NCBI GenBank assembly: GCA_044221955.1
Contig: JBGAOD010000002.1
Location: 1,197 to 65,196 of the forward strand
Source of the DNA: Phycisphaerales bacterium
GTDB lineage: Bacteria; Planctomycetota; Phycisphaerae; Phycisphaerales; UBA1924
Direction of reading: 5' to 3'
Length of the DNA: 64,000 nt
This document shows, in pieces, positions 4,334 to 43,346 of this stretch. The notes under the pieces are model-generated. The model made no database searches and was not told where the DNA came from. It saw only the letters and a list, made by a program, of their open reading frames with translations. The position numbers and the translations under genes were made by a program. Numbering within the stretch: position 1 is the first letter of the stretch; each line of letters starts with the position of its first letter.

Positions 4334-5836
4334 ATGACCAATCAGAACTCGATCCATCGATTGGCCCTGCGTTGCGTGCGGGCTCGGGGTGTTGCCGCCG
4401 CGTTGGTGGTCGCTGCGGGCGTCTTGGTCGGTTCGCGGGCGCTGGCGGTTCAACCCGCCAAGGAACCTGCGAAGGAATCCGCGACGAAGGCGGCCCCGAA
4501 GCAGGGCGGCGAGGACATGCTGATTCTCCGCGACGGGCGGGTGATCAAGGGCAAGTTTGTTTCCGAGACGGACACGGCGGTTCGTTTCCGCGGGACCGTG
4601 GCAGGAATCGAAGTGGAGTCTGAGTATCCCAAGTCAGACATCCTGGAAACACGGCGTGCCGTGGCCGACCCGGCCGCGCCCGCCAAGCCCGGGGACGCGA
4701 AGGCCAAGCCCAAGATTGAGAAGGAGAGCGAACCCAAGAAGGACGCCAAGGAGAAGCCGGCGGCGGATGTCGCGGCGTCCGGTGACGTCAAGTCCAAGGT
4801 CTATGTGCTGGAGCTGGACGGCAAGTTCGGGCGTGACATTTCCCAGACGCCGATCCGCAAGGCCATGGAAGACGCCAAGAAGCTTGGGAGCGAGTACGTG
4901 ATCGTGGTGATGAACAACGACTGGTCGCAGGGAGGGCAGCAGCTCGATGATGACGCGGCGGCGTTCGACCAACTCTCTCGATCGGCGGAGATGGACCCGA
5001 TCTTTGACGTTGAATTGAGCAAGTGGACCAAGCAACCCAAGCTCGTGTTCTGGGTGAAAAAGGCGATGGGCGGCGCGGCGTTCCTGCCGCTGCTGTGCCA
5101 CGACATCTACTTCCACAGCGACGGGAAAATGGGCGGCATCGGCAACCTGACAAAGCTCTTTGACTTCGGCGACGAGGTGGTGCGGCAGAAGCAGTATTCG
5201 CTGCGCTTGGGGCGGGCCGAAGGCAAGGCCAACGAGGGCGGGTACTCGTACCGGCTGGTGCGGGCGATGGCGGTTCCCGAGTACGTGCTGAGCTATTCGA
5301 TCGAGGGCGGGCAGGTGAGGTATTTCGAGCGGATGCCGGAGAACCCCAACGAGTTCCTGCTGACCGATGACGGCAAGGACGCCAACCAGGATTCGGACAA
5401 GGCCATCATCTCGGGTGAGGGCAACGACGTGCTGACGCTCAACGCCAAGCTCGCCAAGGACCTACAGGTGGCCAAGGGGATCGTGGATACCGAAGAGGAT
5501 CTGCTGTTCGAGCTCGGGCTCTCGCGCAACGCCGACAAAACCTACGGGCGCTCCAAGGAGATCATGAAGAGCTGGAGCAAGGATGTGGACCAGGCCGAGC
5601 GGGATATCCAGCGGATGCTGAGCGAGACTCAGGAGCAGCGTCCCAGTTCGACCTATGACGAGCGGGTCCGGTCGCGCGGGATCGAGAAGGCGTTGTGGCT
5701 CAAGATCATCAGCACGCTGGACAGGTACGGCGAGGCTCTTCCCAAGTTCAAGGGTCTCAAGGCCCAGGCGCTCGATCGCATCAAGGCGATCGACAATGAA
5801 TCGACCATGGACGCTCAGCAGCGGAAGAAGAAATAA
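4334..5836 (+). CDS. secreted ClpP/S49 (NfeD-like) fold protein, paralog 1 (Ser position degenerate)
   Basis: Signal peptide 'AAALVVAAGVLVGSRALAVQP', a small beta domain and a K/E/P-rich linker. These are followed by 'VYVLELDGKFG...YVIVVMNNDWSQGG...AMGGAAFLPLLCHDIYFHSDGKMGGIG', which resembles the NfeD/SppA ClpP-like core. Same layout as the next gene. Confidence 0.55.
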   Translation: MTNQNSIHRLALRCVRARGVAAALVVAAGVLVGSRALAVQPAKEPAKESATKAAPKQGGEDMLILRDGRVIKGKFVSETDTAVRFRGTVAGIEVESEYPKSDILETRRAVADPAAPAKPGDAKAKPKIEKESEPKKDAKEKPAADVAASGDVKSKVYVLELDGKFGRDISQTPIRKAMEDAKKLGSEYVIVVMNNDWSQGGQQLDDDAAAFDQLSRSAEMDPIFDVELSKWTKQPKLVFWVKKAMGGAAFLPLLCHDIYFHSDGKMGGIGNLTKLFDFGDEVVRQKQYSLRLGRAEGKANEGGYSYRLVRAMAVPEYVLSYSIEGGQVRYFERMPENPNEFLLTDDGKDANQDSDKAIISGEGNDVLTLNAKLAKDLQVAKGIVDTEEDLLFELGLSRNADKTYGRSKEIMKSWSKDVDQAERDIQRMLSETQEQRPSSTYDERVRSRGIEKALWLKIISTLDRYGEALPKFKGLKAQALDRIKAIDNESTMDAQQRKKK

Positions 5837-7446: not shown

Positions 7447-9243
7447 ATGAGCCCACCCTCAGAGTTCGTCCCGAGATCGTTCGACGCGACCCGTTGGGCC
7501 GAGATCGAACCGCTGATGAGGGCGCTCCTCGATCGGCCGATCCGTGACCGGTCCGAGTTGGAAAGGTGGCTGCTCGACCGCAGCGAACTGGACGCCGCGT
7601 GCAACGAGGCGCAGGCGATCCTGTACATCAACATGACCTGCGATACCGAGGACCAGGCGGCCCAGCGGGCGTACACAACGTACATCGAGACCGTTCCACC
7701 CAAGGTCAAGCCGCTGGCGTTCGAGCTGGACCGGAAGCAGACCACGCTGTCGCGGGAGTTGGGGCTGGACACGGTCCCGGACCGAGGCGATCGGTACAAG
7801 GTTCTGGTGCGCGATGCCGCCGTCGAGGTCGAGCTCTTCCGTGCCGAGAACGTGCCCATCCAGACCGAGCTCTCGCTCTTATCTCAGAAGTACGACCAGC
7901 TCGTCGGCGCGATGACGGTGCCCTTCGACGGGCAGGAACGGACCATGCCCCAGATGGCGCGGTACATGGAGTCCACCGATCGCGGGCTGCGCGAGCGGGC
8001 GTGGCGCGCGATGTGGGACCGGCGGCTTCTGGACGCGGACGCGATCAGCGGCACGTTCGACGACATGATCGCCAAGCGCGATCGCGCGGCCCGCAACGCC
8101 GGGTTCACGGATTTCGTGGGCTACGCGTTCAAGGAAAAGCACCGCTTCGATTACGGCGTGAAGGAGTGCGCCGCGTTCCACCAGGCCTGCGCACAGCACA
8201 TCGTGCCGCTTGTCCGCGCTCTCGATCGCGAGCGCCGGTCCGCGCTGGGCCTTGTTTCGCTCCGCCCGTGGGATCTGGCGGTGGACCCCAAGGGCCGCGC
8301 GCCGCTGCGTCCGTTCGAGGGCGGGCGGCAGCTCGTCGCCAAGGCCGCGGCGACATTCGATCGACTCGACCCAAGGCTGGGTCAGATGCTGCGCACGATG
8401 GGGGACGGGTCGAACGCGCGTGGTGCCCGGAACGCCGACGGGTCGATCGCGTACCTTGACCTTGATTCCCGCAAGGGCAAAGCCCCCGGCGGGTACCAGT
8501 ACATGCGCGACCGGGCGCGGGCTCCGTTCATTTTCATGAACGCCGCGGGCCTGCAGGGCGACGTGTCGACGATGCTGCACGAGGCCGGGCACGCGTTCCA
8601 TTCAATGCTGTGCGCCGACGAGCCGCTGGTGAGCTACCGCACCGCGCCGATCGAGTTCTGCGAGGTGGCGAGCATGTCGATGGAGCTGCTTACCATGCCG
8701 TACTGGGGCCGTCCCAAGGGGGGATCGGGCGGCGGTCAGGCGGTCGAGTGTTTTTATTCGGACGAGGCGGACTTGGCGCGGGCGCGGCGTCAGCAGCTCG
8801 AGCGGAGCGTGGGAATCCTGCCTTGGATCGCGACGATCGACAAGTTCCAGCACTGGCTGTACACGAATCCGAAGCACACGCGGAGCGAGCGTCGAGTGCA
8901 CTGGCTCTCGCTCGATGAAGAGTTCGGGCACGAGGTCCAGTGGAGCGGGCTCGACGAACAGCGAAGCCACGCCTGGCAGCGTCAGATGCACCTCTTCGGC
9001 AGTCCGTTCTACTACATCGAATACGGCATCGCCCAGCTCGGGGCGCTGCAGTTGTGGCTGCACGCGACCGAGCACGGCGACAAATCGGCGGTCGAGGCGT
9101 ACCTCGCGGGGCTGCGGCTGGGCGGGTCCAAGCCCTTGCCCGAGCTGTTCAAGGCGTCGGGATTGAGGTTCGATTTCGGAGCCGAGGTCGTGAAGCGGCT
9201 CGTGGACCGTGTTCAGAAAGAGCTGGACGCGCTGCCGATCTAG
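7447..9243 (+). CDS. M3-family oligoendopeptidase (PepF-like zinc metallopeptidase)
   Basis: HEXXH zinc site 'MLHEAGHAFHS', overall length and C-terminal 'FYYIEYGIAQLGALQLW', all typical of M3B oligoendopeptidase F. Start is at the internal Met 'MSPPSEF'. Confidence 0.8.
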   Translation: MSPPSEFVPRSFDATRWAEIEPLMRALLDRPIRDRSELERWLLDRSELDAACNEAQAILYINMTCDTEDQAAQRAYTTYIETVPPKVKPLAFELDRKQTTLSRELGLDTVPDRGDRYKVLVRDAAVEVELFRAENVPIQTELSLLSQKYDQLVGAMTVPFDGQERTMPQMARYMESTDRGLRERAWRAMWDRRLLDADAISGTFDDMIAKRDRAARNAGFTDFVGYAFKEKHRFDYGVKECAAFHQACAQHIVPLVRALDRERRSALGLVSLRPWDLAVDPKGRAPLRPFEGGRQLVAKAAATFDRLDPRLGQMLRTMGDGSNARGARNADGSIAYLDLDSRKGKAPGGYQYMRDRARAPFIFMNAAGLQGDVSTMLHEAGHAFHSMLCADEPLVSYRTAPIEFCEVASMSMELLTMPYWGRPKGGSGGGQAVECFYSDEADLARARRQQLERSVGILPWIATIDKFQHWLYTNPKHTRSERRVHWLSLDEEFGHEVQWSGLDEQRSHAWQRQMHLFGSPFYYIEYGIAQLGALQLWLHATEHGDKSAVEAYLAGLRLGGSKPLPELFKASGLRFDFGAEVVKRLVDRVQKELDALPI

Positions 9244-9250
9244 CGATCCT

Positions 9251-9349
9251 GGTAGGTCGGCTCTCCGAGCCGACTCTTCGCCCCGCAGCATTGGGACTGG
9301 AAGCACGGTCGTTCTGAATTGAAGAGTCGGCTCGGAGAGCCGACCTACC
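9251..9349. repeat. composite palindromic (REP/MITE-like) element: perfect 29-bp inverted arms around a 41-nt spacer
   Basis: The left arm GGTAGGTCGGCTCTCCGAGCCGACTCTTC (9251-9279) is the exact reverse complement of 9321-9349. Each arm also contains its own 8-bp hairpin, GTCGGCTC-TCC-GAGCCGAC. The element starts 8 nt after the pepF-like stop. A homologous copy lies at 42927-43058. Confidence 0.85.
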
Positions 9350-9375: not shown

Positions 9376-10959
9376 TTGATGGACCGCGCTGTGCCGCACA
9401 TGACCCCCGATGAGTTTCGCGCGATCGGCCGTCGCATGGTCGACTGGATCGCCGCGTACTGGGAGAGCGTCGAGACCATGCCGGTGCTCGCGCAGGTCAA
9501 GCCCGGCGAGATCGCCGCCAAGCTGCCCGGATCGGCCGCCGAGTTCTTCGAGAGGAGCGCGGCGGACGGGTCGTCGGGCGGTTCGTCGGTCTGGGACGCG
9601 ATCTTTCGCGACCTCGATGAGGTCATCGTTCCGGGGTTGACGCACTGGCAGTCGCCCAATTTCTACGGGTATTTCCCGGCGAATGTGTCGGGCCCGGCCG
9701 CGCTGGGCGATCTGCTCGCCGCCGGGCTTGGTGTGCAGGGGATGCTCTGGCAGACGAGCCCAGCCTGTACGGAGCTCGAAACGCGGGTGCTCGATTGGTT
9801 GGGTGAGGCGTGCGGGTTGCCCGCCGAGTTTCTTTCGAGCTCAGATACAGGCGGCGGGGTGATCCAGGGCACGGCGAGCGAGGCGGCGCTCGTGGCGATG
9901 ATCGCGGCGCGGAGTCGAGCGATCAATCGGTGGAATCGAATGCCCTCGGCACCGGCACCGGCAACGTCGAAGGGGGCAGGTACACCGCATCTGACGCTGT
10001 ACACCTCAACGCAGGCGCACTCGTCCATCGTCAAGGCCGCGATGATCGCGGGACTGGCGCAGCACCCCGAGGATCGCACGCACGTTCGTGTGATCGATGT
10101 TGACGCGGAGTGCCGAATGGACGTGGCGAAGTTGACCGATGCAATCCGCGTGGATCGGGCCGCGGGGCGGGTTCCGTTCTTCGTGTGCGGGACGATCGGC
10201 ACGACCGGAACGACGGCGATCGACCGCATTTCAGGGATCGCGGAGGCGCTCGGCGGTGACGGGAACGGCGGTGAAGGCCGTCCCTGGCTCCATGTGGACG
10301 CGGCCCACGCGGGCCCGCTCGCGCTGTGCCCCGAGTTTCGCTGGATGTTCGAGGGCGTGGCGCGGGCCGATTCGTACTGCTTCAACCCGCACAAGTGGAT
10401 GCTGACCAACTTTGATTGCAACTGTCTTTGGACGCGCGATCGGCGTGCGGTCATCAACGCGCTGTCCGTCACGCCCGAGTACCTGCGGAACGCGGCCAGC
10501 GACTCGGGCTCGGTCATCGACTACCGCGACTGGCAGATCCCGCTGGGGCGACGATTCCGCTCGCTCAAGCTTTGGTTTGTTCTGCGTCACTACGGGCTGA
10601 ACGCCCTGCAGGACTACCTACGCGAGCACGTCCGCCTCGCGTCGGTCTTTGAGAGTGTGGTCCGCGCCGACGATCGCTTCGAGATCCCGACCCCGCGCAC
10701 AATGAACCTGGTGTGCTTCCGTCTCAGAGGAAGCGGGGCGGAGAGCGACGCGAGGAACCGGGCGCTCATGAACGCTCTCAACGCCGGGGGCAAGTTGTTT
10801 CTGACGCACACGCAGCTTCCGCCGTCGGTCCCCGGCCCGGCCGGTGGACGCGTCGTGCTGCGCCTGGCCGTGGGCGCGACGGGGACGCAAGAGCGTCATG
10901 TGCGGGAGGCTTGGGCGCAGATCTCGCGAGACGCGGAACGGCTCGGCGCGGGCGGTTGA
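9376..10959 (+). CDS. PLP-dependent group II decarboxylase (aromatic-L-amino-acid/tyrosine decarboxylase-like)
   Basis: The PLP-lysine motif 'SYCFNPHKWMLTNFDC', 'HVDAAHAG' and the N-terminal 'HWQSPNFYGYFP' are characteristic of DDC-type decarboxylases. Confidence 0.8.
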   Translation: MMDRAVPHMTPDEFRAIGRRMVDWIAAYWESVETMPVLAQVKPGEIAAKLPGSAAEFFERSAADGSSGGSSVWDAIFRDLDEVIVPGLTHWQSPNFYGYFPANVSGPAALGDLLAAGLGVQGMLWQTSPACTELETRVLDWLGEACGLPAEFLSSSDTGGGVIQGTASEAALVAMIAARSRAINRWNRMPSAPAPATSKGAGTPHLTLYTSTQAHSSIVKAAMIAGLAQHPEDRTHVRVIDVDAECRMDVAKLTDAIRVDRAAGRVPFFVCGTIGTTGTTAIDRISGIAEALGGDGNGGEGRPWLHVDAAHAGPLALCPEFRWMFEGVARADSYCFNPHKWMLTNFDCNCLWTRDRRAVINALSVTPEYLRNAASDSGSVIDYRDWQIPLGRRFRSLKLWFVLRHYGLNALQDYLREHVRLASVFESVVRADDRFEIPTPRTMNLVCFRLRGSGAESDARNRALMNALNAGGKLFLTHTQLPPSVPGPAGGRVVLRLAVGATGTQERHVREAWAQISRDAERLGAGG

Positions 10960-37860: not shown

Positions 37861-40800
37861 ATGTCTTCCGCACCACCATCGTCAGTCCCCGGCACTGCCC
37901 CGGACCCCGACCACCCGTTCCGGTACACGGCCTCGCTTGCTGGCTCGATTGAAACGCGCTGGCAAGATGAGTGGAGGGCACGCCGGAGCTTCGTCGCGAG
38001 GAACCCGGGTGAGGTCGGGTTTGACCCGAGCAGGCCGAAGTTTTATTGCCTGGACATGTTCCCCTACCCGTCGGGGGCGGGGCTTCATATCGGGCACCCC
38101 GAGGGGTACACGGCGACCGACATCGTCTGCCGGTACAAGCGGGCCAAGGGGTTTAATGTTTTGCACCCGATGGGATGGGATGCGTTTGGGCTGCCGGCCG
38201 AGCAGTACGCGATCCAGACGGGCGTACACCCGGCGAAAACGACGCGGGCGAGCATCGAGAACTTTCGCCGGCAGTTGCAGCGGTTCGGGTTCTGCTACGA
38301 CTGGGAGCGTGAGTTCGGGACGATCGACGAGAGCTATTACAAGTGGACGCAGTGGATTTTTCTGAAGCTGTACGGCAGTTGGTTCGACCCGCGGCGGAAC
38401 TCGGCGCGGCCGATCGAGGAGTTTGTCGAGAAGTTGAAGTCGGGCGTGTTCGGGGTTGCGCCGGACGGTTCGGTGGTTCACTTTGGTGACGGCGAGCGCG
38501 GGGCCGTGCCGCCGGCGGGGACGCGGCGGTGGCACGATCTGAGCGCGGGCGAGCGCGGCAACGTGGTGGACAACCAGCGGCTGGCGTTCCTTGCTGAGAC
38601 GACGGTGAACTGGTGCCCGAAGCTGGGGACGGTGCTGGCCAACGACGAGGTGATCGACGGCCGGAGCGAACGCGGCGGGCACCCCGTGATGCGCAGGCCT
38701 TTGAAGCAGTGGATGTTCCGGATCACGGCGTACGCCGAGCGGCTTTTGTCGCAGTTGGGGAGGTTGGACTGGCCGTCGAGCACGAAGGCGATGCAGGCGG
38801 AGTGGATCGGGAAGAGCGAGGGGGCGGAGATTGAGTTTAAGATTGTGAACCCGCCCCACGCGGAGCGTGGGGGTACCCAGGGCGAAGAATCGCTTCGCGT
38901 CTTCACTACCCGCCCGGACACGCTTTTCGGCGCGACGTACATGGTCGTGGCGCCCGAGCACGAGTTGTGCGCCAAGGCCGGCAACGGCGAGTTGGGTGTC
39001 GATCCCAACACCGCGGCGGCCCTCCGGTCTTACTGCGAGCGAGCCCGCAACCGCAGCGACATCGAGCGGCAGCAGGAGACGAAAGAGAAGACTGGCGCGT
39101 TCACGGGCGTGTACGCGATCAACCCTGCGAGCGGCGTGCGCATCCCCATCTGGACCGCGGATTATGTGCTCATGGGCTACGGCACGGGCGCGATCATGGC
39201 GGTGCCGGCCCACGACGAGCGGGACTACGAGTTCGCCAAGGCCTTCGACCTGCCGATCCGCGACGTGGTGTACTCGGGGATCACTTGCGCGATGGATTTT
39301 TTCGCGCGGCGTGCGTCGCCCGACGAGCAGGTCAGCGAGGCGTGGGCCGGGATGCTGGCGGACCTGCTGGGCGTGACGGTGTCGCGGAGCATCCCGCCTT
39401 CGCGGCTTGACGAGGCGATCAACATCGTCCGCCACGGTCGGCCCAAGGGATCGCCCGTCCCGCCGCCGGACCGCCGCGGTTCGGTGCAGACCGAGTGGCT
39501 CGACATGATCGCGACCGTCGGGCTGAAGGACTTCGAGGATTTCCGCGATGTTTTTCTCGCGGCCAGTTTCCATCGCGCCAGCGGAGCGGCGTTCACGCAG
39601 ACGGGGTACGCGGTCAATTCGTCGAGCAAGGCCGTGGACATTAACGGTCTGCCCACCGAGCACGCCAAGGTGGCGATGATTTCGTGGCTGGAGCGCTCGG
39701 GGATCGGGCGCGGGAAGGTGAATTATCGCTTGCGCGACTGGACGTTCAGCCGGCAGCGGTACTGGGGCGAGCCGTTCCCGATCGTGTACGACGCGGCGGG
39801 GAAGGCGTACCCGATCTCCGAATCGCACCTGCCGGTGACGCTGCCCGAACTGGCGGATTACGCGCCGGTCGAGAGCGACACGCCGCAGCCGCTGCTGGCC
39901 AAGGCGACGGCGTGGATGAACACGACGGCGGGAGCGGCGGGCGTTGACCGGGCGCTGCTGCCGCCCGGGACGCCGGTGACGCGCGAGACGAACACCATGC
40001 CGGGGAGCGCGGGCTCGTCGTGGTACGCGATCCGGTATTGCGATCCGAAGAACGCAGGGAGACTGGTGGGCAAAGAGGCCGAGGCGTACTGGATGGGCGG
40101 CGAGGCCGGGGCCCGCGGCGTGGACCTGTACCTGGGCGGCTCCGAGCACGCTGTCGGGCACCTGCTGTACTCGCGCTTCTGGCAGAACGTGCTGTTCGAC
40201 CTGGGCGAGGTCAGCACGCCCGAGCCGTTTCATAAGCTCGTTCACCAGGGGCTCATCACCAGCTTTGCGTACCAGCGGCCCGACAAGACGATCGTGCCGG
40301 TGGACGAGGTGAAAGAAGTTCTCGACGGCGAGAAGGTCTCGCACGTCGAGATCGCCACGGGCAAGGCGGTCGCGCCGATCGTGACGAAGATGTCCAAGCG
40401 GTACAAGAACGTGGTGAACCCCGACGACGTGATCAACGAGTTCGGGGCGGACACATGCCGGCTCTACGAGATGTACATGGGGCCGCTGGAGGCGAGCAAG
40501 CCGTGGAACCCGCGCGATATCAGCGGGTGCCACCGGTTTTTGCAGCGGGCCTGGCGGCTGTGTGTTGATGAGAAGACCGGGGCTCTCAAGCCCGTCGCCG
40601 CGGCCGACGCGAACATCGAGAAGCTGCTGCACCGGATGATCGCGAAGGTCGGGGCGGACATAGAGCGGCTGGCGTTCAACACGGCGATCGCGGCGATGAT
40701 CGAGTTCGTGAACGCGGGCACGACGGCTGGGGGATTGACGAGCCAGCAGATGTCGGGCTTTGCGCTGGTGCTGGGGCCGTTCGCGCCGCACATGGCCGAG

Positions 40801-41073
40801 GAGCTGTGGGCGAAGCTGGGCAATCAGCGACTGCTGTGCGACGTGGCCTGGCCGACGGTCGATGAGTCCAAGCTCAAGGACGATCAGGTCGAGATCCCGG
40901 TGCAGATCATGGGCAAGGTTCGCGGTCGTGTGATGGTCGCGGCCGCGGCGGATGAAACGGCGGCGCGGGCGGCGGTGATGGCGGATGCCAAACTCGTCGA
41001 GGCGATGGGCGGCAAGGCGATCAAGAAGGTGATCTATGTGCCGGGGCGGATGATCAATTTGCTGGTGGGGTAA
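37861..41073 (+). CDS. leuS: leucine--tRNA ligase
   Basis: HIGH motif 'PYPSGAGLHIGHPEGY', the CP1 editing region, 'NYRLRDWTFSRQRYWGEPFP' and the KMSKS motif 'KMSKRYKN'. At 1070 aa it is long for a bacterial LeuRS (extra ~85-90 aa around 39270-39600). Confidence 0.95.
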   Translation: MSSAPPSSVPGTAPDPDHPFRYTASLAGSIETRWQDEWRARRSFVARNPGEVGFDPSRPKFYCLDMFPYPSGAGLHIGHPEGYTATDIVCRYKRAKGFNVLHPMGWDAFGLPAEQYAIQTGVHPAKTTRASIENFRRQLQRFGFCYDWEREFGTIDESYYKWTQWIFLKLYGSWFDPRRNSARPIEEFVEKLKSGVFGVAPDGSVVHFGDGERGAVPPAGTRRWHDLSAGERGNVVDNQRLAFLAETTVNWCPKLGTVLANDEVIDGRSERGGHPVMRRPLKQWMFRITAYAERLLSQLGRLDWPSSTKAMQAEWIGKSEGAEIEFKIVNPPHAERGGTQGEESLRVFTTRPDTLFGATYMVVAPEHELCAKAGNGELGVDPNTAAALRSYCERARNRSDIERQQETKEKTGAFTGVYAINPASGVRIPIWTADYVLMGYGTGAIMAVPAHDERDYEFAKAFDLPIRDVVYSGITCAMDFFARRASPDEQVSEAWAGMLADLLGVTVSRSIPPSRLDEAINIVRHGRPKGSPVPPPDRRGSVQTEWLDMIATVGLKDFEDFRDVFLAASFHRASGAAFTQTGYAVNSSSKAVDINGLPTEHAKVAMISWLERSGIGRGKVNYRLRDWTFSRQRYWGEPFPIVYDAAGKAYPISESHLPVTLPELADYAPVESDTPQPLLAKATAWMNTTAGAAGVDRALLPPGTPVTRETNTMPGSAGSSWYAIRYCDPKNAGRLVGKEAEAYWMGGEAGARGVDLYLGGSEHAVGHLLYSRFWQNVLFDLGEVSTPEPFHKLVHQGLITSFAYQRPDKTIVPVDEVKEVLDGEKVSHVEIATGKAVAPIVTKMSKRYKNVVNPDDVINEFGADTCRLYEMYMGPLEASKPWNPRDISGCHRFLQRAWRLCVDEKTGALKPVAAADANIEKLLHRMIAKVGADIERLAFNTAIAAMIEFVNAGTTAGGLTSQQMSGFALVLGPFAPHMAEELWAKLGNQRLLCDVAWPTVDESKLKDDQVEIPVQIMGKVRGRVMVAAAADETAARAAVMADAKLVEAMGGKAIKKVIYVPGRMINLLVG

Positions 41074-41099: not shown

Positions 41100-43346
41100 C
41101 TACAGCCCGTACTCGCGCCAGCGTTGCGTGACAGTTCCCGCGATCGCGCTCTCCATCTTCAAAATCGGCGGCCAGGGCCGCACCGGCCAGCCGTGGGCCT
41201 CGTCGCCGGGGACTTTGGGCATCCCTTCGAACGCGACGCGCCGGCCGCAGACGCTGAGGTAGCGGTCGCGCTCGTGCGAGCTGTGGGCCATCCAGTGGAA
41301 GAGAACGCGGTCGAGGTCGGCGAGGTCGGCGTCGGGACCGACGACGAGGGTCCAGCGCGGCAGGGCGCACGCTTCGGTCACGCCGCCGAGGGCTTTGATG
41401 ACTTGGGTTCCGTCGCCGGGGTTGTGCTTGTCGGCCTGGAGCACGAGCCAGTGCCCGCCGAGCTCGTTGGGCACGCGTGCGTCGCGCACGCCGGGAAGAG
41501 ATTTCACGCGGGCTTCGGTCGCGCGGGCCGCGGCGCCGATGGCGGGCGCGATCGGGCCGGTGGCGCACAGTTCGGCGGCGAGGCCGCTGTTGGCGCGGTG
41601 GGTCTCGGCGGGGCTCGATTTTCTCGTCGCGTCGAGCCCGAGCTTCCCGCCCGCCCCAAGGAACGGGGCGGCGTGGTCGAGGATGTCGAGCGGGCCTCGG
41701 ACGAGTTCGCAGTCGCGGGCCGGCTCGCAGTGCTCGCCCACGGCCCGCAGCACGGCGTCGCGGTCGTGTACGTCCATGTCGGCGTCCACCACCACGATCG
41801 TCTTGGTCCAGCTCATCTGCCCCGCGCCCCAGATCGCGTGCATCACGCGGCGGGCGTGCAGCGGGTACTCCTTCTTGATCTTCAGGAACGCGCAGTTGTG
41901 GAAGCAGCCAAAGAGCGGGAGGTCGTAGTCGATGATGTCGGGCACGATCGTGCGCAGCAGCGGCAGGAAGATCCGCTCGGTGGCCTTGCCGAGGAAGTAG
42001 TCTTCTTGGGGTGGAAGACCGACGATGGTGGTTTGATAGATGGGGCGGCGACGGTGCGTGATCGCGGTGACTTCCAGGAGCGGGTAACGATCGGGGAGTG
42101 AGTAAAAACCGGTGTGGTCTCCGAAAGGACCTTCGAAGACGGCGCCCGACCCCAACCCAAACCCTCCTCCTTTGGCAATTTGGACCTTTGGCGATTTGGC
42201 AATTTCCCTCGGGTCCCAGTCGATGAAGCCCGCCTCGTTGCTCACGTACCCCTCGATCACGATCTCCGCGTTGGCGGGTACGTCGATGGGGACGGTCTTG
42301 CACGCGACGAGCGGGATCGGGCCTTTGTTCAGGAATCCGGCGAGAAGGAACTCGCTGATGCCCGGCGGCATGGGCGCGGTGGCGGCGTAGGGCAGCACGC
42401 TTTCGCCGCCGATCGCGATGGCGACGGGCATGCGCTGGCCCTTGGCCTTCCAGGAGCGCCAGTGGCGTGCGCCGTCGTGGTGCATGTGCCAGTGCATGGC
42501 CATGTGTTTTTTGCCGAGGAGCTGCACGCGGTACATGCCGATGTTGCGGCTGGTAGGTTGCGGGTTTCCAAGGTCGTCGGCGTGGATGGTGTGGATGCCG
42601 CCGAGGGTGATGTATCGGCCGCGGGAGTTCTTCTCCCAGTCCGGTCCGGAGCCGAGGCCGGGGATGCCGTCGTTGATGCCGGCGGGGTATCCGAGCGCGG
42701 CGTAGTCGCCGTCGTGAGGCCAGCAGCGGAGAAGCGGCAGGCGTGTGAGGTCGATGTCGTCGCCGGTTTTCACGACGTCCTGGCACGGTCCGGATTTGAC
42801 TCTTTTCGGCGGGATTTTGACGAGTTCGAGCAGCTCGGGGATTTTCTGGAGCTTGGCGAGGAGCGTGGGGGGGGGCTCGGGCTTGACGAGCTTGCCGATG
42901 CGCTCGGCGAGGGCTTCGAGGCCTGTGGTAGGTCCGCTGGTAGGTCGGCTCTCCGAGCCGACTTCTTCGCGTGCGTTCGTTCCGGCGATTGCATTGGAAG
43001 CGGAGGGTGAGGAAAGAGAGGGAGGAGAGGAAGAGTCGGCCCGGAGGTCCGACCTACCACTGCATCCCAGCGCCATCTCGATGCGTCGGTAGCTGCCCAG
43101 TGCGTTGATGAGCACGGGGATGTCGGAGCCTTCGACGTTCTCGAAGAGGAGGGCCGAGCCGCCGAGGTGGTGGAAGCGCGGGTCGGTGCGGCGCGTGGAT
43201 TGGCTGCCGAGGTTGGGGGCCGGTGATTTGCTGACGCGATCGGCGATCTCGGTGATTTCAAGCACGGGCGAGACGCGGGCGGCGATGCGCTTGAGTTCAC
43301 CGGCCTGGTCGAGCGCTCGGACGAACTGTTCGGTCGTGTCGTACAT
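41100..43346 (-). CDS. UbiD-family (prenyl-FMN-dependent) decarboxylase, probably quinone biosynthesis
   Basis: Collinear with E. coli UbiD as I remember it: 'GELKRI...VLEITEIADR', 'ALLFENV', 'KLVKPEPPP', 'YRVQLLGKKHMAMHW', 'EGPFGDHTGFY' and 'LGLDATRK'. It carries several insertions, one of which is the repeat at 42927-43058. Confidence 0.85.
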   Translation of the reverse strand: MYDTTEQFVRALDQAGELKRIAARVSPVLEITEIADRVSKSPAPNLGSQSTRRTDPRFHHLGGSALLFENVEGSDIPVLINALGSYRRIEMALGCSGRSDLRADSSSPPSLSSPSASNAIAGTNAREEVGSESRPTSGPTTGLEALAERIGKLVKPEPPPTLLAKLQKIPELLELVKIPPKRVKSGPCQDVVKTGDDIDLTRLPLLRCWPHDGDYAALGYPAGINDGIPGLGSGPDWEKNSRGRYITLGGIHTIHADDLGNPQPTSRNIGMYRVQLLGKKHMAMHWHMHHDGARHWRSWKAKGQRMPVAIAIGGESVLPYAATAPMPPGISEFLLAGFLNKGPIPLVACKTVPIDVPANAEIVIEGYVSNEAGFIDWDPREIAKSPKVQIAKGGGFGLGSGAVFEGPFGDHTGFYSLPDRYPLLEVTAITHRRRPIYQTTIVGLPPQEDYFLGKATERIFLPLLRTIVPDIIDYDLPLFGCFHNCAFLKIKKEYPLHARRVMHAIWGAGQMSWTKTIVVVDADMDVHDRDAVLRAVGEHCEPARDCELVRGPLDILDHAAPFLGAGGKLGLDATRKSSPAETHRANSGLAAELCATGPIAPAIGAAARATEARVKSLPGVRDARVPNELGGHWLVLQADKHNPGDGTQVIKALGGVTEACALPRWTLVVGPDADLADLDRVLFHWMAHSSHERDRYLSVCGRRVAFEGMPKVPGDEAHGWPVRPWPPILKMESAIAGTVTQRWREYGL
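42927..43058. repeat. second, diverged copy of the 9251-9349 palindromic element, inside the UbiD-family CDS and in frame
   Basis: The left arm GGTAGGTCGGCTCTCCGAGCCGACTTCTTC starts at 42939, preceded by a partial duplicate GGTAGGTCCGCT. The right arm GAAGAGTCGGCCCGGAGGTCCGACCTACC is at 43030-43058. The spacer shares the GCATTGG...GAAGC core with the first copy. The segment 42939-43058 is 120 nt. Confidence 0.8.

What the first reader, a model, noticed from the sequence alone, without database searches (positions are those of the whole stretch)
42927..43061. Palindromic repeat element inserted in frame and translated inside a UbiD-family decarboxylase gene
Seen: the second copy of the element lies within CDS 41100..43346 (minus). 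The arm-to-arm segment 42939-43058 is 120 nt, a multiple of three. The reading frame stays open and reads '...RRIEMALGCSGRSDLRADSSSPPSLSSPSASNAIAGTNAREEVGSESRPTSGPTTGLEALAERIGKLVKPEPPP...'. The right arm has diverged (GTCGGCCCGGAGGTCCGAC), which weakens the hairpin.
Established (from my memory of E. coli UbiD): the flanking segments correspond to '...[33 protein letters not shown]', where only a handful of residues separate them. So about 45 aa here are extra and map to a surface linker.
Inference: a non-coding palindromic element was tolerated or exapted as a low-complexity loop in an essential-pathway enzyme. If real, this is a clear example of repeat-driven protein-insertion evolution. Alternatively the gene is a decaying pseudogene copy.
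Basis: partly seen in the sequence, partly recalled or inferred. Interest (0 to 1): 0.65.

Follow-up and report, generated by a model that had tools for sequence, protein, structure and literature searches.

The report
Mobile DNA hairpin translated inside enzyme
A 120-base mobile palindromic repeat (a REP pair, or REPIN) sits in frame inside an intact menaquinone-biosynthesis gene of a Phycisphaerae bacterium and is read as a floppy 40-residue surface loop; this kind of event is already documented, but the case is unusually well supported.

Summary
Window 42939-43058 is a 120-nt inverted pair of 24-nt GTAG-tagged hairpin repeats (REP units), that is, a REPIN. A perfect intergenic copy lies at 9251-9349.

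The REPIN lies in phase inside gene 41100-43346(-), which encodes a UbiD-family menaquinone decarboxylase (TIGR03701). It codes residues 97-136 (GRSDLRAD...VGSESRPT).

- **Absent elsewhere:** E. coli UbiD and all homologues at 78% identity or less lack the segment. The three closest orthologues (about 90%), from independent assemblies, carry it at the same site.
- **Gene is alive:** dN/dS is about 0.10.
- **Structure:** AlphaFold gives a confident UbiD fold. Its only long low-confidence stretch is residues 100-136.
- **Arms versus spacer:** the REP arms are almost frozen, even at synonymous sites. The spacer drifts, and all indels keep the frame.

The same REP family is common in Phycisphaerales genomes. 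About a quarter of the sampled clusters lie inside genes, and 19 of 20 checked ORFs were conserved genes. It hit this gene family at least three separate times.

A matching REP-associated transposase (RAYT) exists in related genomes. There it sits, remarkably, in frame inside leuS.

In-frame REP and RPE insertions are already documented, so this is a new member of a known kind.

The parts
41100..43346 (-). Host gene: UbiD-family menaquinone biosynthesis decarboxylase (futalosine pathway, SCO4490/MqnL type), 748 aa, intact
   Evidence: Pfam UbiD_N, UbiD and UbiD_C. TIGR03701 scores 525.7 bits against a cut-off of 495.9. Foldseek gives TM 0.84 to E. coli UbiD 5m1d. dN/dS is about 0.10.
42939..43058 (.). 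REPIN: two inverted REP units plus spacer, 120 nt, equal to codons 97-136 read in phase 0
   Evidence: The RNA fold of 151 nt around the element is -62.3 kcal/mol, z -3.9.
43035..43058 (-). REP unit, 5' arm in gene orientation. It is the variant GGTAGGTCGGACCTCCGGGCCGAC, translated GRSDLRAD (aa 97-104).
   Evidence: 3 mismatches to the canonical unit. Identical in L001, L002 and L127, and recurrent in other genes.
42963..43034 (-). 72-nt spacer, pyrimidine-rich on the coding strand, translated as a Ser/Pro-rich low-complexity stretch (aa 105-128)
   Evidence: About 60% identity between orthologues, with indels that restore the frame. dN/dS is 0.4-1.0.
42939..42962 (+). Canonical REP unit GGTAGGTCGGCTCTCCGAGCCGAC, the 3' arm in gene orientation. 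Its reverse complement is translated VGSESRPT (aa 129-136).
   Evidence: 0 mismatches. (frame translations).
42926..42937 (.). 12-nt tandem duplicate of the REP head (TGGTAGGTCCGC), contributing SGPT (aa 137-140)
   Evidence: family D2. Similar head duplications and a (CCAA)n expansion occur in L001.
9251..9349 (.). Intergenic sister REPIN, 99 nt, with perfect arms (9251-9274 + and 9326-9349 -). It lies 8 nt after the stop codon of an M3-peptidase gene and before a PLP-decarboxylase gene.
   Evidence: The ssDNA fold is -41.2 kcal/mol, z -8.1.

Best explanation
**What it is**
The element is a REPIN: two inverted copies of a GTAG-tagged repetitive palindrome (REP, GTAG plus an 8-bp stem and a 3-nt loop) separated by a spacer. 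It belongs to a REP family that is widespread in Phycisphaerales.

**How it got there (inferred)**
A copy inserted into the coding sequence of the menaquinone (futalosine-pathway) UbiD-type decarboxylase gene. By analogy with other REPINs, it was mobilised in trans as single-stranded DNA by a REP-associated tyrosine transposase (RAYT).

**Where it sits**
It lies in a naturally length-variable linker between helix 86-93 and helix 142-154.

**Why it survived (inferred)**
- Its length is a multiple of three.
- Five of the six reading frames of the REP unit have no stop codon.
- The site tolerates extra residues.

**What happens to it now**
The ribosome reads it through as about 40-44 extra residues (GRSDLRAD, a Ser/Pro-rich stretch, VGSESRPT, SGPT). 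These are predicted to form a disordered surface loop, and the enzyme stays under purifying selection.

**Age and evolution**
The insertion predates the split of at least three sampled lineages (dS about 0.43). Since then the two REP arms have stayed nearly unchanged. The spacer has evolved about as fast as, or faster than, synonymous sites, with only frame-preserving indels.

**Shown:** identity as a REP pair, in-phase position, absence from relatives, shared ancestry of the insert, purifying selection on the host gene, low-confidence loop.
**Inferred:** RAYT-mediated insertion, actual translation, neutrality of the loop.
For: **Repeat identity and copies**

**Family distribution**
The exact 23-mer occurs in more than 107 genome stretches, mostly Phycisphaerales and Phycisphaeraceae.

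**Phase and frames**
The element starts and ends on codon boundaries. Only one of the six REP frames has a stop codon.

**Absence from relatives**
- E. coli UbiD residues 86 and 87 are contiguous across the insert.
- All homologues at 78% identity or less lack it. The linker has a median of 15 aa against 47 here.
- The empty site is seen in L003 DNA.

**Shared ancestry**
The same site and the same asymmetric arm pair occur in L001, L002 and L127, which come from independent assemblies.

**Selection**
- Gene: dN 0.045, dS 0.43.
- Arms: 1-2 differences in 48 nt per pair, dS 0-0.08.
- Spacer: about 60% identity, dN/dS 0.4-1.0.
- Arms against spacer: Fisher p about 1e-6.

**Structure**
Mean pLDDT is 87 and pTM 0.88. 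The only long segment below 50 is residues 100-136, predicted as coil. The fold matches UbiD.

**Generality**
- 25 of 105 REP clusters in the sampled non-Neisseria loci (mostly Phycisphaerales; also other Planctomycetota and Sumerlaeia) lie deep inside coding-like ORFs.
- 19 of 20 such ORFs are conserved genes by Pfam.
- This gene family took separate REP insertions in L111, L112 and L113.

**Cognate transposase**
A RAYT-like gene (NF047646, 75.7 and 78.4 bits; HUH and Tyr motifs) adjoins REPs of this family: they flank it on both sides in L020, and one follows it in L070, whose 5' side is cut by the locus end.

**Published precedent**
PMC3733652, PMC3116915, PMC3333891.
Against: - There is no direct evidence of translation or of enzyme activity. 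No proteomics or expression data exist for this uncultured organism.
- No RAYT gene was found in the 64-kb window, and the rest of the source genome could not be searched.
- The RAYT hits score just under NCBIfam's curated cut-off of 80 bits.
- Low pLDDT is compatible with disorder but does not prove it. The distance to the active site was not measured.
- The near-absence of synonymous change in the arms is not what a purely neutral passenger predicts. It points to some extra constraint or to concerted evolution. The sample is small: 48 nt and 3 lineages, with binomial p of 0.02-0.09 per pair.
Confidence: 0.85

Rival explanations
1. The insert is not a neutral passenger. It is kept by selection at the nucleic-acid level (mRNA hairpin affecting stability or translation pausing, or a RAYT or other protein binding site) or at the peptide level. 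It would then be an exapted, dual-coding element.
For: - The arms are nearly invariant, including at third codon positions (dS 0-0.08 against 0.43 gene-wide), in three lineages.
- The mRNA is predicted to form a -62 kcal/mol hairpin, z -3.9.
- In near-identical strains, other genic REPINs keep 100% identical arms while their spacers change.
Against: - The sample is small.
- REP arms are more conserved than spacers in intergenic REPINs too (PMC3116915), so the pattern is a property of the repeat family, not of this gene.
- The same variant arm exists elsewhere in related genomes, so gene conversion between copies could also keep the arms uniform.
- Most orthologues work without any insert.
Confidence: 0.2
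2. The gene is a decaying pseudogene copy, and the open frame across the repeat is fortuitous.
For: The gene is 748 aa, against about 500 aa for E. coli UbiD, and it contains low-complexity sequence.
Against: - dN/dS is about 0.10 over 695 codons in each of three pairwise comparisons.
- TIGR03701 scores above its curated cut-off.
- The protein carries every column that is invariant across 120 homologues.
- The long form (about 700-720 aa) is the norm in this clade.
- All indels in the insert restore the frame.
- There is no second UbiD copy in the window.
Confidence: 0.02
3. The 120 nt are an assembly artefact, with a repeat collapsed or chimerically joined into the gene.
For: Repeats can mislead short-read assemblers, and the source is probably a metagenome-assembled contig.
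Against: The insert is at the same site with the same arms in four independent assemblies: the window, Logan SRR23621027 (L002), JGI Ga0105047 (L001/L123) and ENA ORBV01000326 (L127). Each has its own lineage-specific spacer.
Confidence: 0.01
4. The gene is really split. The REPIN would be an intergenic spacer between a 95-aa N-terminal ORF and a separately initiated downstream ORF, so the repeat is not translated.
For: REPs normally sit just downstream of stop codons, as the sister copy at 9251-9349 does.
Against: - There is no stop codon before or inside the element in any of four orthologues.
- Length differences between lineages net to multiples of three (117 and 120 nt arm to arm), including a 1-nt and a 2-nt gap in L002's spacer that together total three. 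That is unnecessary for a non-coding spacer.
- AlphaFold packs residues 1-95 against the rest with pLDDT above 90.
Confidence: 0.03

Closest known systems
Intragenic GTAG-tagged REPs (Di Nocera et al. 2013, PMC3733652), most numerous in Opitutus terrae
   Same: - A short GTAG-headed hairpin repeat, single or as inverted dimers.
- Located wholly inside ORFs for known proteins.
- Dimers encode 20-30 aa.
- tRNA synthetases and repair genes are among the hosts, and some genes are hit twice.
- The authors already proposed that such inserts sit in flexible linkers or loops.
   Different: - A different REP sequence family and a different lineage. That study covered Planctomyces brasiliensis and P. 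limnophilus, not Phycisphaerae.
- UbiD/MqnL was not found among the intragenic hosts in the supplements held here.
- This insert has a long 72-nt spacer and encodes 40 aa.
- Orthologue comparison here dates the insert and separates arm evolution from spacer evolution.
Rickettsia palindromic elements (RPE; Ogata et al. 2000 and 2002, summarised in PMC10969869 and PMC3733652)
   Same: - Palindromic repeats of about 100-150 bp inserted in frame into unrelated housekeeping genes.
- They are translated at positions compatible with the protein fold.
   Different: - The sequence is unrelated.
- RPE-4 and RPE-6 carry the CGTC tag rather than GTAG, and no dedicated transposase is known for them (PMC3733652).
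- The host is an obligate intracellular alphaproteobacterium, not a free-living planctomycete.
REPIN/RAYT systems (Bertels & Rainey 2011, PMC3116915; Nunvar 2010, PMC2817692; Ton-Hoang 2012, PMC3333891; Messing 2012, PMC3479197)
   Same: - An inverted REP doublet that forms a long hairpin.
- The spacer is less conserved than the REPs.
- There is a cognate Y1/HUH transposase gene flanked by the same REPs.
   Different: - Classical REPINs are almost entirely extragenic.
- Here about a quarter of the sampled clusters are inside genes.
- The only RAYTs found for the family are themselves in frame inside leuS.
E. coli UbiD (PDB 2idb, 5m1b-e) and SCO4490-type MqnL decarboxylases
   Same: - Three-domain UbiD fold, with TM 0.84 normalised to the target.
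- About 32% identity.
- The conserved EGPFGDHTG region.
   Different: - The 40-44 aa REPIN-derived loop.
- Other clade-specific loops.
- A C-terminal extension of about 160 aa that E. coli UbiD lacks.

Membership tests
REP (repetitive extragenic palindrome), GTAG superfamily | A 20-40 nt unit with an unpaired GTAG tetranucleotide at one end followed by a G+C-rich imperfect palindrome (PMC3733652) | tested here: met
   The unit is G-GTAG-GTCGGCTC-TCC-GAGCCGAC: the GTAG head, an 8-bp stem and a 3-nt loop.
REP (repetitive extragenic palindrome), GTAG superfamily | Many dispersed copies per genome | tested here: inconclusive
   There are 4 units in the 64-kb window against 0 expected. More than 107 stretches occur across genomes, with 10 or more loci in single MAGs such as SJ456. 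The copy number in the source genome itself could not be counted.
REP (repetitive extragenic palindrome), GTAG superfamily | Extragenic location | tested here: not met
   This copy is inside a CDS, as are 25 of 105 sampled clusters. The name-giving feature fails, as it does for the published intragenic REPs.
REPIN | Two REPs in inverted orientation with a spacer, able to fold into one long hairpin in ssDNA or RNA (PMC3116915) | tested here: met
   Arms are 26 nt and 88% complementary. The RNA fold is -62.3 kcal/mol, z -3.9. The sister copy folds at z -8.1.
REPIN | A cognate RAYT (Y1 HUH transposase) gene flanked by the same REPs | tested here: inconclusive
   Met in related MAGs. In L020 the RAYT-like ORF lies between REPs at 5437(+) and 6125(-); L070 is similar. 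NF047646 scores 75.7 and 78.4 bits against a cut-off of 80. Pfam Y1_Tnp scores 32.6 bits for L070, above its cut-off of 23, but 20.4 bits for L020, below it. No RAYT was found in the window, and the source genome is not available.
REPIN | Mobility (excision or insertion events) | not testable with these tools
   The only evidence is indirect: independent insertions in the same gene family, and the same asymmetric arm pair in three of the four unrelated genes that carry the variant arm; no second arm was found in the fourth, CarB.
UbiD family / menaquinone decarboxylase TIGR03701 (SCO4490, MqnL type) | The whole protein scores above the curated equivalog cut-off, with the UbiD_N, UbiD and UbiD_C architecture | tested here: met
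   525.7 bits against 495.9, and three Pfam domains.
UbiD family / menaquinone decarboxylase TIGR03701 (SCO4490, MqnL type) | UbiD three-dimensional fold | tested here: met
   The AF2 model matches 5m1d_B, E 3.6e-44, TM 0.84 normalised to the target.
UbiD family / menaquinone decarboxylase TIGR03701 (SCO4490, MqnL type) | prFMN-dependent decarboxylase activity and a role in the futalosine pathway | not testable with these tools
   Inferred from family membership only. Individual cofactor-binding residues were not checked.
Rickettsia palindromic elements (RPE) | Sequence membership in one of the RPE families, or a CGTC tag | tested here: not met
   The tag is GTAG, not CGTC, and the element belongs to a different repeat family. 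It behaves like an RPE but is not one.

The most novel reading that the evidence does not exclude
In this Phycisphaerae lineage the whole REP/RAYT system may have moved into coding sequence.

- REPINs would be maintained, not merely tolerated, inside housekeeping genes. Their arms are frozen at the nucleotide level and their spacers are hypervariable. That would turn them into rapidly evolving disordered loops in otherwise conserved enzymes.
- The cognate transposase would be expressed as an in-frame insertion within the essential leucyl-tRNA synthetase gene. That arrangement would be intein-like in the sense that the element cannot be lost without repairing an essential gene.
Probability: 0.2. 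Interest if true: 0.75.

Novelty: new member of a known kind. Interest (0 to 1): 0.45.

Why it matters
- **A clean, datable case.** A selfish DNA repeat became part of a protein. The empty site, the occupied site in several lineages and a free intergenic sister copy are all visible.
- **Arms and spacer can be separated.** The arms are constrained as DNA or RNA, while the spacer drifts or is hypervariable.
- **A lineage-wide pattern.** In the sampled loci, mostly Phycisphaerales, about a quarter of REP clusters are genic. They hit tRNA synthetases, DnaK, topoisomerases, CarB, PurM and others. This matters in three ways:
  - for annotation, because the peptides GRSALRAD, VGSESRPT, VGRLSEP, SARRADLP and RLGEPTY flag REP-derived loops;
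  - for alignment and phylogeny of these proteins;
  - for understanding how bacterial proteins acquire disordered loops.
- **Limits.** It does not change what is known about the mechanism of REPs or of UbiD enzymes.

Tried and rejected
1. **Protein-level census of REPIN-bearing proteins.** A 42-aa concatenation of two natural REPIN peptides found no candidate sharing words. The exhaustive HMMER search with the window's 40-aa insert returned only two low-complexity matches. Short repeat peptides are below the reach of these tools, so the census was done at DNA level instead.
2. **RAYT in the window.** tblastn with an E. coli RAYT-like sequence recalled from memory, used only as a lead, plus a motif regex gave only a chance-level hit inside the M3 peptidase gene (Pfam check). 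The lead did uncover the L070 RAYT, which Pfam and NCBIfam then verified.
3. **How common RAYT-in-leuS is.** The RAYT insert as query found six small stand-alone transposase-like proteins and no fusion. This is unresolved.
4. **Rfam.** No family matched anywhere in the window.
5. **Terminator or promoter role for the intergenic copy.** No consensus sites were found.
6. **Distance of the loop from the prFMN site.** The model coordinates are not exposed, so it was not measured.
7. **The idea that the variant arm is copy-specific decay.** Rejected, because the same variant recurs in other genes, paired with a canonical or near-canonical arm where a second arm was found.
8. **Pseudogene, misassembly and split-gene readings.** Rejected; see the rival explanations.
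Full report
**1. The observation**

ORF 41100-43346(-) is open for 748 codons and contains '...RRIEMALGCSGRSDLRADSSSPPSLSSPSASNAIAGTNAREEVGSESRPTSGPTTGLEALAERIGKLVKPEPPP...'.

The 24-mer GGTAGGTCGGCTCTCCGAGCCGAC occurs four times in the window. None is expected in 100 dinucleotide-preserving shuffles.
- 9251-9274(+), exact
- 9326-9349(-), exact
- 42939-42962(+), exact
- 43035-43058(-), 3 mismatches

The two genic units are inverted arms: 26 nt, 88% complementary, 70 nt apart. The arm-to-arm segment 42939-43058 is 120 nt and corresponds exactly to codons 97-136. A 12-nt tandem duplicate of the unit's head (42926-42937) adds four more codons.

The first copy lies between an M3-peptidase gene, whose stop codon ends at 9243, and a PLP-dependent decarboxylase gene. 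It has perfect arms and folds as single-stranded DNA at z = -8.1.

**2. What the repeat is**

Each unit is G-GTAG followed by an 8-bp stem and a 3-nt loop (GTCGGCTC-TCC-GAGCCGAC). That is the architecture that defines GTAG-tagged REPs (PMC3733652). An inverted pair able to form one long hairpin is a REPIN (PMC3116915).

- Most hits are in Phycisphaerales, Phycisphaeraceae and Tepidisphaera MAGs.
- Some are in other Planctomycetota and in Sumerlaeia.
- Unexpectedly, many are in Neisseria sp. HSC-16F19.

The units occur as singletons, as inverted pairs and as direct tandem arrays. No Rfam family matches.

**3. What the host gene is**

The protein has the UbiD_N, UbiD and UbiD_C domains. It scores 525.7 bits on TIGR03701, the menaquinone biosynthesis decarboxylase of SCO4490 type, against a cut-off of 495.9.

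Its homologues are Phycisphaerae proteins of about 700-720 aa. A divergently transcribed methyltransferase gene upstream is syntenic in every locus fetched. A leucyl-tRNA synthetase gene is also close by in the window and in L001.

**4. Is the segment an insertion?**

- HMMER against E. coli UbiD (2idb) aligns query 2-102 to chain residues 6-86 and query 145-213 to chain residues 87-155. About 42 residues have no counterpart.
- Among 120 aligned homologues, the linker between the conserved Gly94 and Gly142 has a median of 15 residues (range 1-63). The window has 47. Only P0002 (47) and P0003 (63) are comparable. These two are also the only homologues above 78% identity, at 90-91%.
- At DNA level the window, L002 (P0002) and L001 (P0003) carry the REPIN at the same place. 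L003 (P0006, 73-77% identical) shows the unoccupied site...MALGCEEGPASLAGLEG....
- A fourth assembly, L127, carries it too.

Four independent assemblies, each with a lineage-specific spacer, rule out misassembly.

**5. Is the gene alive?**

Nei-Gojobori estimates for the window against L002 and L001, leaving out the insert, give dN of about 0.045-0.049 and dS of about 0.43. That puts dN/dS at about 0.10, or 0.08 for the UbiD core.

The protein has every residue that is invariant across 120 homologues. There is no second UbiD gene in the window. The pseudogene reading is rejected.

**6. How the insert evolves**

The 5' arm in gene orientation, GGTAGGTCGGACCTCCGGGCCGAC, is identical in all orthologues. 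The 3' arm differs by at most one base.

| Region | Result |
|---|---|
| Two arms (48 nt) | 1, 1 and 2 differences per pair; dS 0-0.08 against 0.43 gene-wide |
| Arms against gene-wide divergence | binomial p = 0.02, 0.02 and 0.09 |
| 72-nt spacer | about 60% identity, dN/dS 0.4-1.0 |
| Arms against spacer | Fisher p about 1e-6 |

Indels in the spacer net to multiples of three. In L002 a 1-nt gap and a 2-nt gap compensate each other. So the frame is under selection, the spacer sequence is not, and the arms are constrained beyond what coding requires.

**7. The 'diverged' arm is a recurrent variant**

A metagenome scan for the variant arm found 14 stretches. Besides the UbiD orthologues, it lies in frame inside the following genes.
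- A class I/II aminotransferase (Kbl/BioF-like): L114, L119, L124
- PurM: L120, L121, L126
- CarB: L115, L117

In the first two genes it is again paired with a canonical or near-canonical second arm; in CarB no canonical second arm was detected. The variant also keeps one compensatory stem change, T-A to C-G.

Between near-identical strains, with flanks 99.2-99.5% identical, the arms are 100% identical. The spacers differ more.
- PurM spacer: 76% identical, 8 mismatches and 6 gap positions. Mismatches against flanks give Fisher p = 6e-8.
- Aminotransferase spacer: a 12-nt indel.
- UbiD pair L123/L127: identical spacers.

Spacer hypervariability is therefore frequent but not universal. That arms are better conserved than spacers is already known for intergenic REPINs (PMC3116915).

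**8. Structure**

AlphaFold2 with the 120-sequence alignment gives mean pLDDT 87 and pTM 0.88. The only long segment with pLDDT below 50 is residues 100-136, predicted as coil. It lies between helix 86-93 and helix 142-154.

The model matches E. coli UbiD structures, with E down to 5e-46 and TM up to 0.84 on the target. I could not measure the distance to the cofactor site because the coordinates are not exposed.

The mRNA across the insert is predicted to form a long hairpin of -62.3 kcal/mol, z -3.9.

**9. The phenomenon is general in this lineage**

In the loci fetched by the REP scan, 25 of 105 REP clusters outside Neisseria lie at least 60 codons from the upstream end and 30 from the downstream end of long ORFs with coding-type GC3 periodicity. 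Of 20 such ORFs scanned against Pfam, 19 are conserved genes.
- A RimO/MiaB-type methylthiotransferase with two REPINs
- Aminotransferases
- Kynureninase
- ThrRS and CysRS
- DnaK
- Topoisomerase VI-B and topoisomerase I
- Acetyl-CoA synthetase
- MnmG
- MeaB
- CarB
- PurM
- The SdhA/FrdA-type flavoprotein
- A NuoL-type subunit
- An MqnC/CofH-type radical-SAM enzyme
- A BlaR1-type peptidase
- An FAA hydrolase

All five stop-free frames of the unit are used: GRSALRAD, VGRLSEP, VGSESRPT, SARRADLP and RLGEPTY. Only the frame that reads TAG is closed.

The UbiD family itself was hit separately several times.
- P0033/L112 has a REPIN with a 13-nt spacer in the same linker but in another frame.
- P0078/L113 has a diverged unit in the same linker.
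- P0109/L111 has five tandem units in a different loop, just before EGPFGDH.

**10. The transposase**

No RAYT is present in the window. In related MAGs a RAYT-like ORF adjoins REPs of this family: in L020 it lies between inverted REPs, and in L070 (cut at its 5' end) a REP follows it.
- It carries an HUH motif (SNHVHWLV or PDHVHWII) and a Tyr motif (YIARNPVE or YVVRNPVE).
- NF047646 'REP-associated tyrosine transposase' scores 75.7 and 78.4 bits against a cut-off of 80.
- Pfam Y1_Tnp scores 32.6 bits against a cut-off of 23.

These results come from L020 and L070.

RAYTs bind the REP hairpin with its GTAG head and cleave single-stranded DNA (PMC3333891, PMC3479197, PMC8266576). That this enzyme put the REPIN into the UbiD gene is an inference.

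**11. Comparison with what is known, and verdict**

In-frame palindromic repeats in genes were described for Rickettsia RPEs (summarised in PMC10969869). GTAG and CGTC REPs inside genes were described for many bacteria, most numerous in Opitutus terrae. The proposal that they sit in flexible loops was made there too (PMC3733652).

That study did not cover Phycisphaerae, and the supplements held here do not list a UbiD host.

It is a new member of a known kind. Three things go beyond the literature I could read.
- The dated, multi-lineage view of arm evolution against spacer evolution.
- The high genic fraction in this lineage.
- The RAYT sitting in frame inside leuS (see the items noticed in passing).

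Noticed in passing
L020 4373-7999 (+) and L070 3-2702 (+): A whole REPtron (REP, RAYT-like ORF, REP; about 234 codons) sits in frame, with no stop codon, inside the leucyl-tRNA synthetase gene. It lies between '...SEGAEVEF' and 'LRVFTTRPDT...', the start of the editing domain. This occurs in two MAGs from different studies (JAIYDA010000064.1 and Tepidisphaera sp. WGNV01000004.1), and the two RAYT parts are 57% identical. The window's own LeuRS (37861-41073 +) aligns on both sides of the insertion and has only 18 residues at that site. No paper describing this turned up in the library search.
   Followed up: partly
L008-L010, L014, L021, L022, L025, L032, L034, L036, L037, L040, L042, L046, L056, L063, L074, L077, L082, L083: The identical 23-nt REP is abundant, as tight inverted pairs with spacers of about 15 nt, in Neisseria sp. 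HSC-16F19, a betaproteobacterium. It also occurs in Sumerlaeia MAGs. One exact REP sequence is therefore shared across three phyla, which suggests either horizontal transfer of a REP/RAYT system or strong convergence.
   Followed up: no
L004 1591-3294 (-); L007, L024, L033, L041, L045, L053, L055, L067, L073, L088, L099, L115, L119, L121 and others: REP units or REPINs of this family lie inside many conserved housekeeping genes of Phycisphaerales, including a RimO-like gene with two REPINs, ThrRS, CysRS, DnaK, Topo I, Topo VI-B, CarB, PurM, MnmG and Acs. 25 of 105 sampled clusters are genic, and 19 of 20 checked ORFs are real genes.
   Followed up: yes
L121 vs L126; L119 vs L124: Between strains whose flanking DNA is 99.2-99.5% identical, the REPIN spacer inside PurM is only 76% identical, and the one inside a Kbl/BioF-like gene has a 12-nt indel. 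The arms are 100% identical and the frame is kept. These are hypervariable loops in housekeeping enzymes.
   Followed up: partly
L111 gene nt 1008-1188 (P0109 aa 336-396): Five direct tandem REP units with a 42-nt period are translated as repeated VGSESRPTPE(S/P)A(I/V)G inside a different loop of the same decarboxylase family, just before the conserved EGPFGDH motif.
   Followed up: partly
window 42926-42949; L001 10286-10312 and about 10433-10460; L116/L118/L122/L125: The REP head (GGTAGGTCG...) is tandemly duplicated next to several copies. In L001 one end has expanded into a (CCAA)n microsatellite translated as NQPTNQP. The cause is unexplained and could be slippage or a footprint of transposase action.
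   Followed up: no
window 41100-41590 (protein residues about 586-748): This Phycisphaerae clade of UbiD-type decarboxylases has a C-terminal extension of about 160 residues. It is conserved (invariant C700-G-R-R703), confidently folded in the AlphaFold model, and has no Pfam match and no counterpart in E. coli UbiD.
   Followed up: no
window 9251-9349: The intergenic sister REPIN is exactly 99 nt, also a multiple of three. Its spacer shares a short motif (CTTCGNCCGCAG) with the spacers of the genic copies in PurM and the aminotransferase. This suggests that the whole doublet of about 100 nt, not the single REP, is the unit that moves.
   Followed up: no
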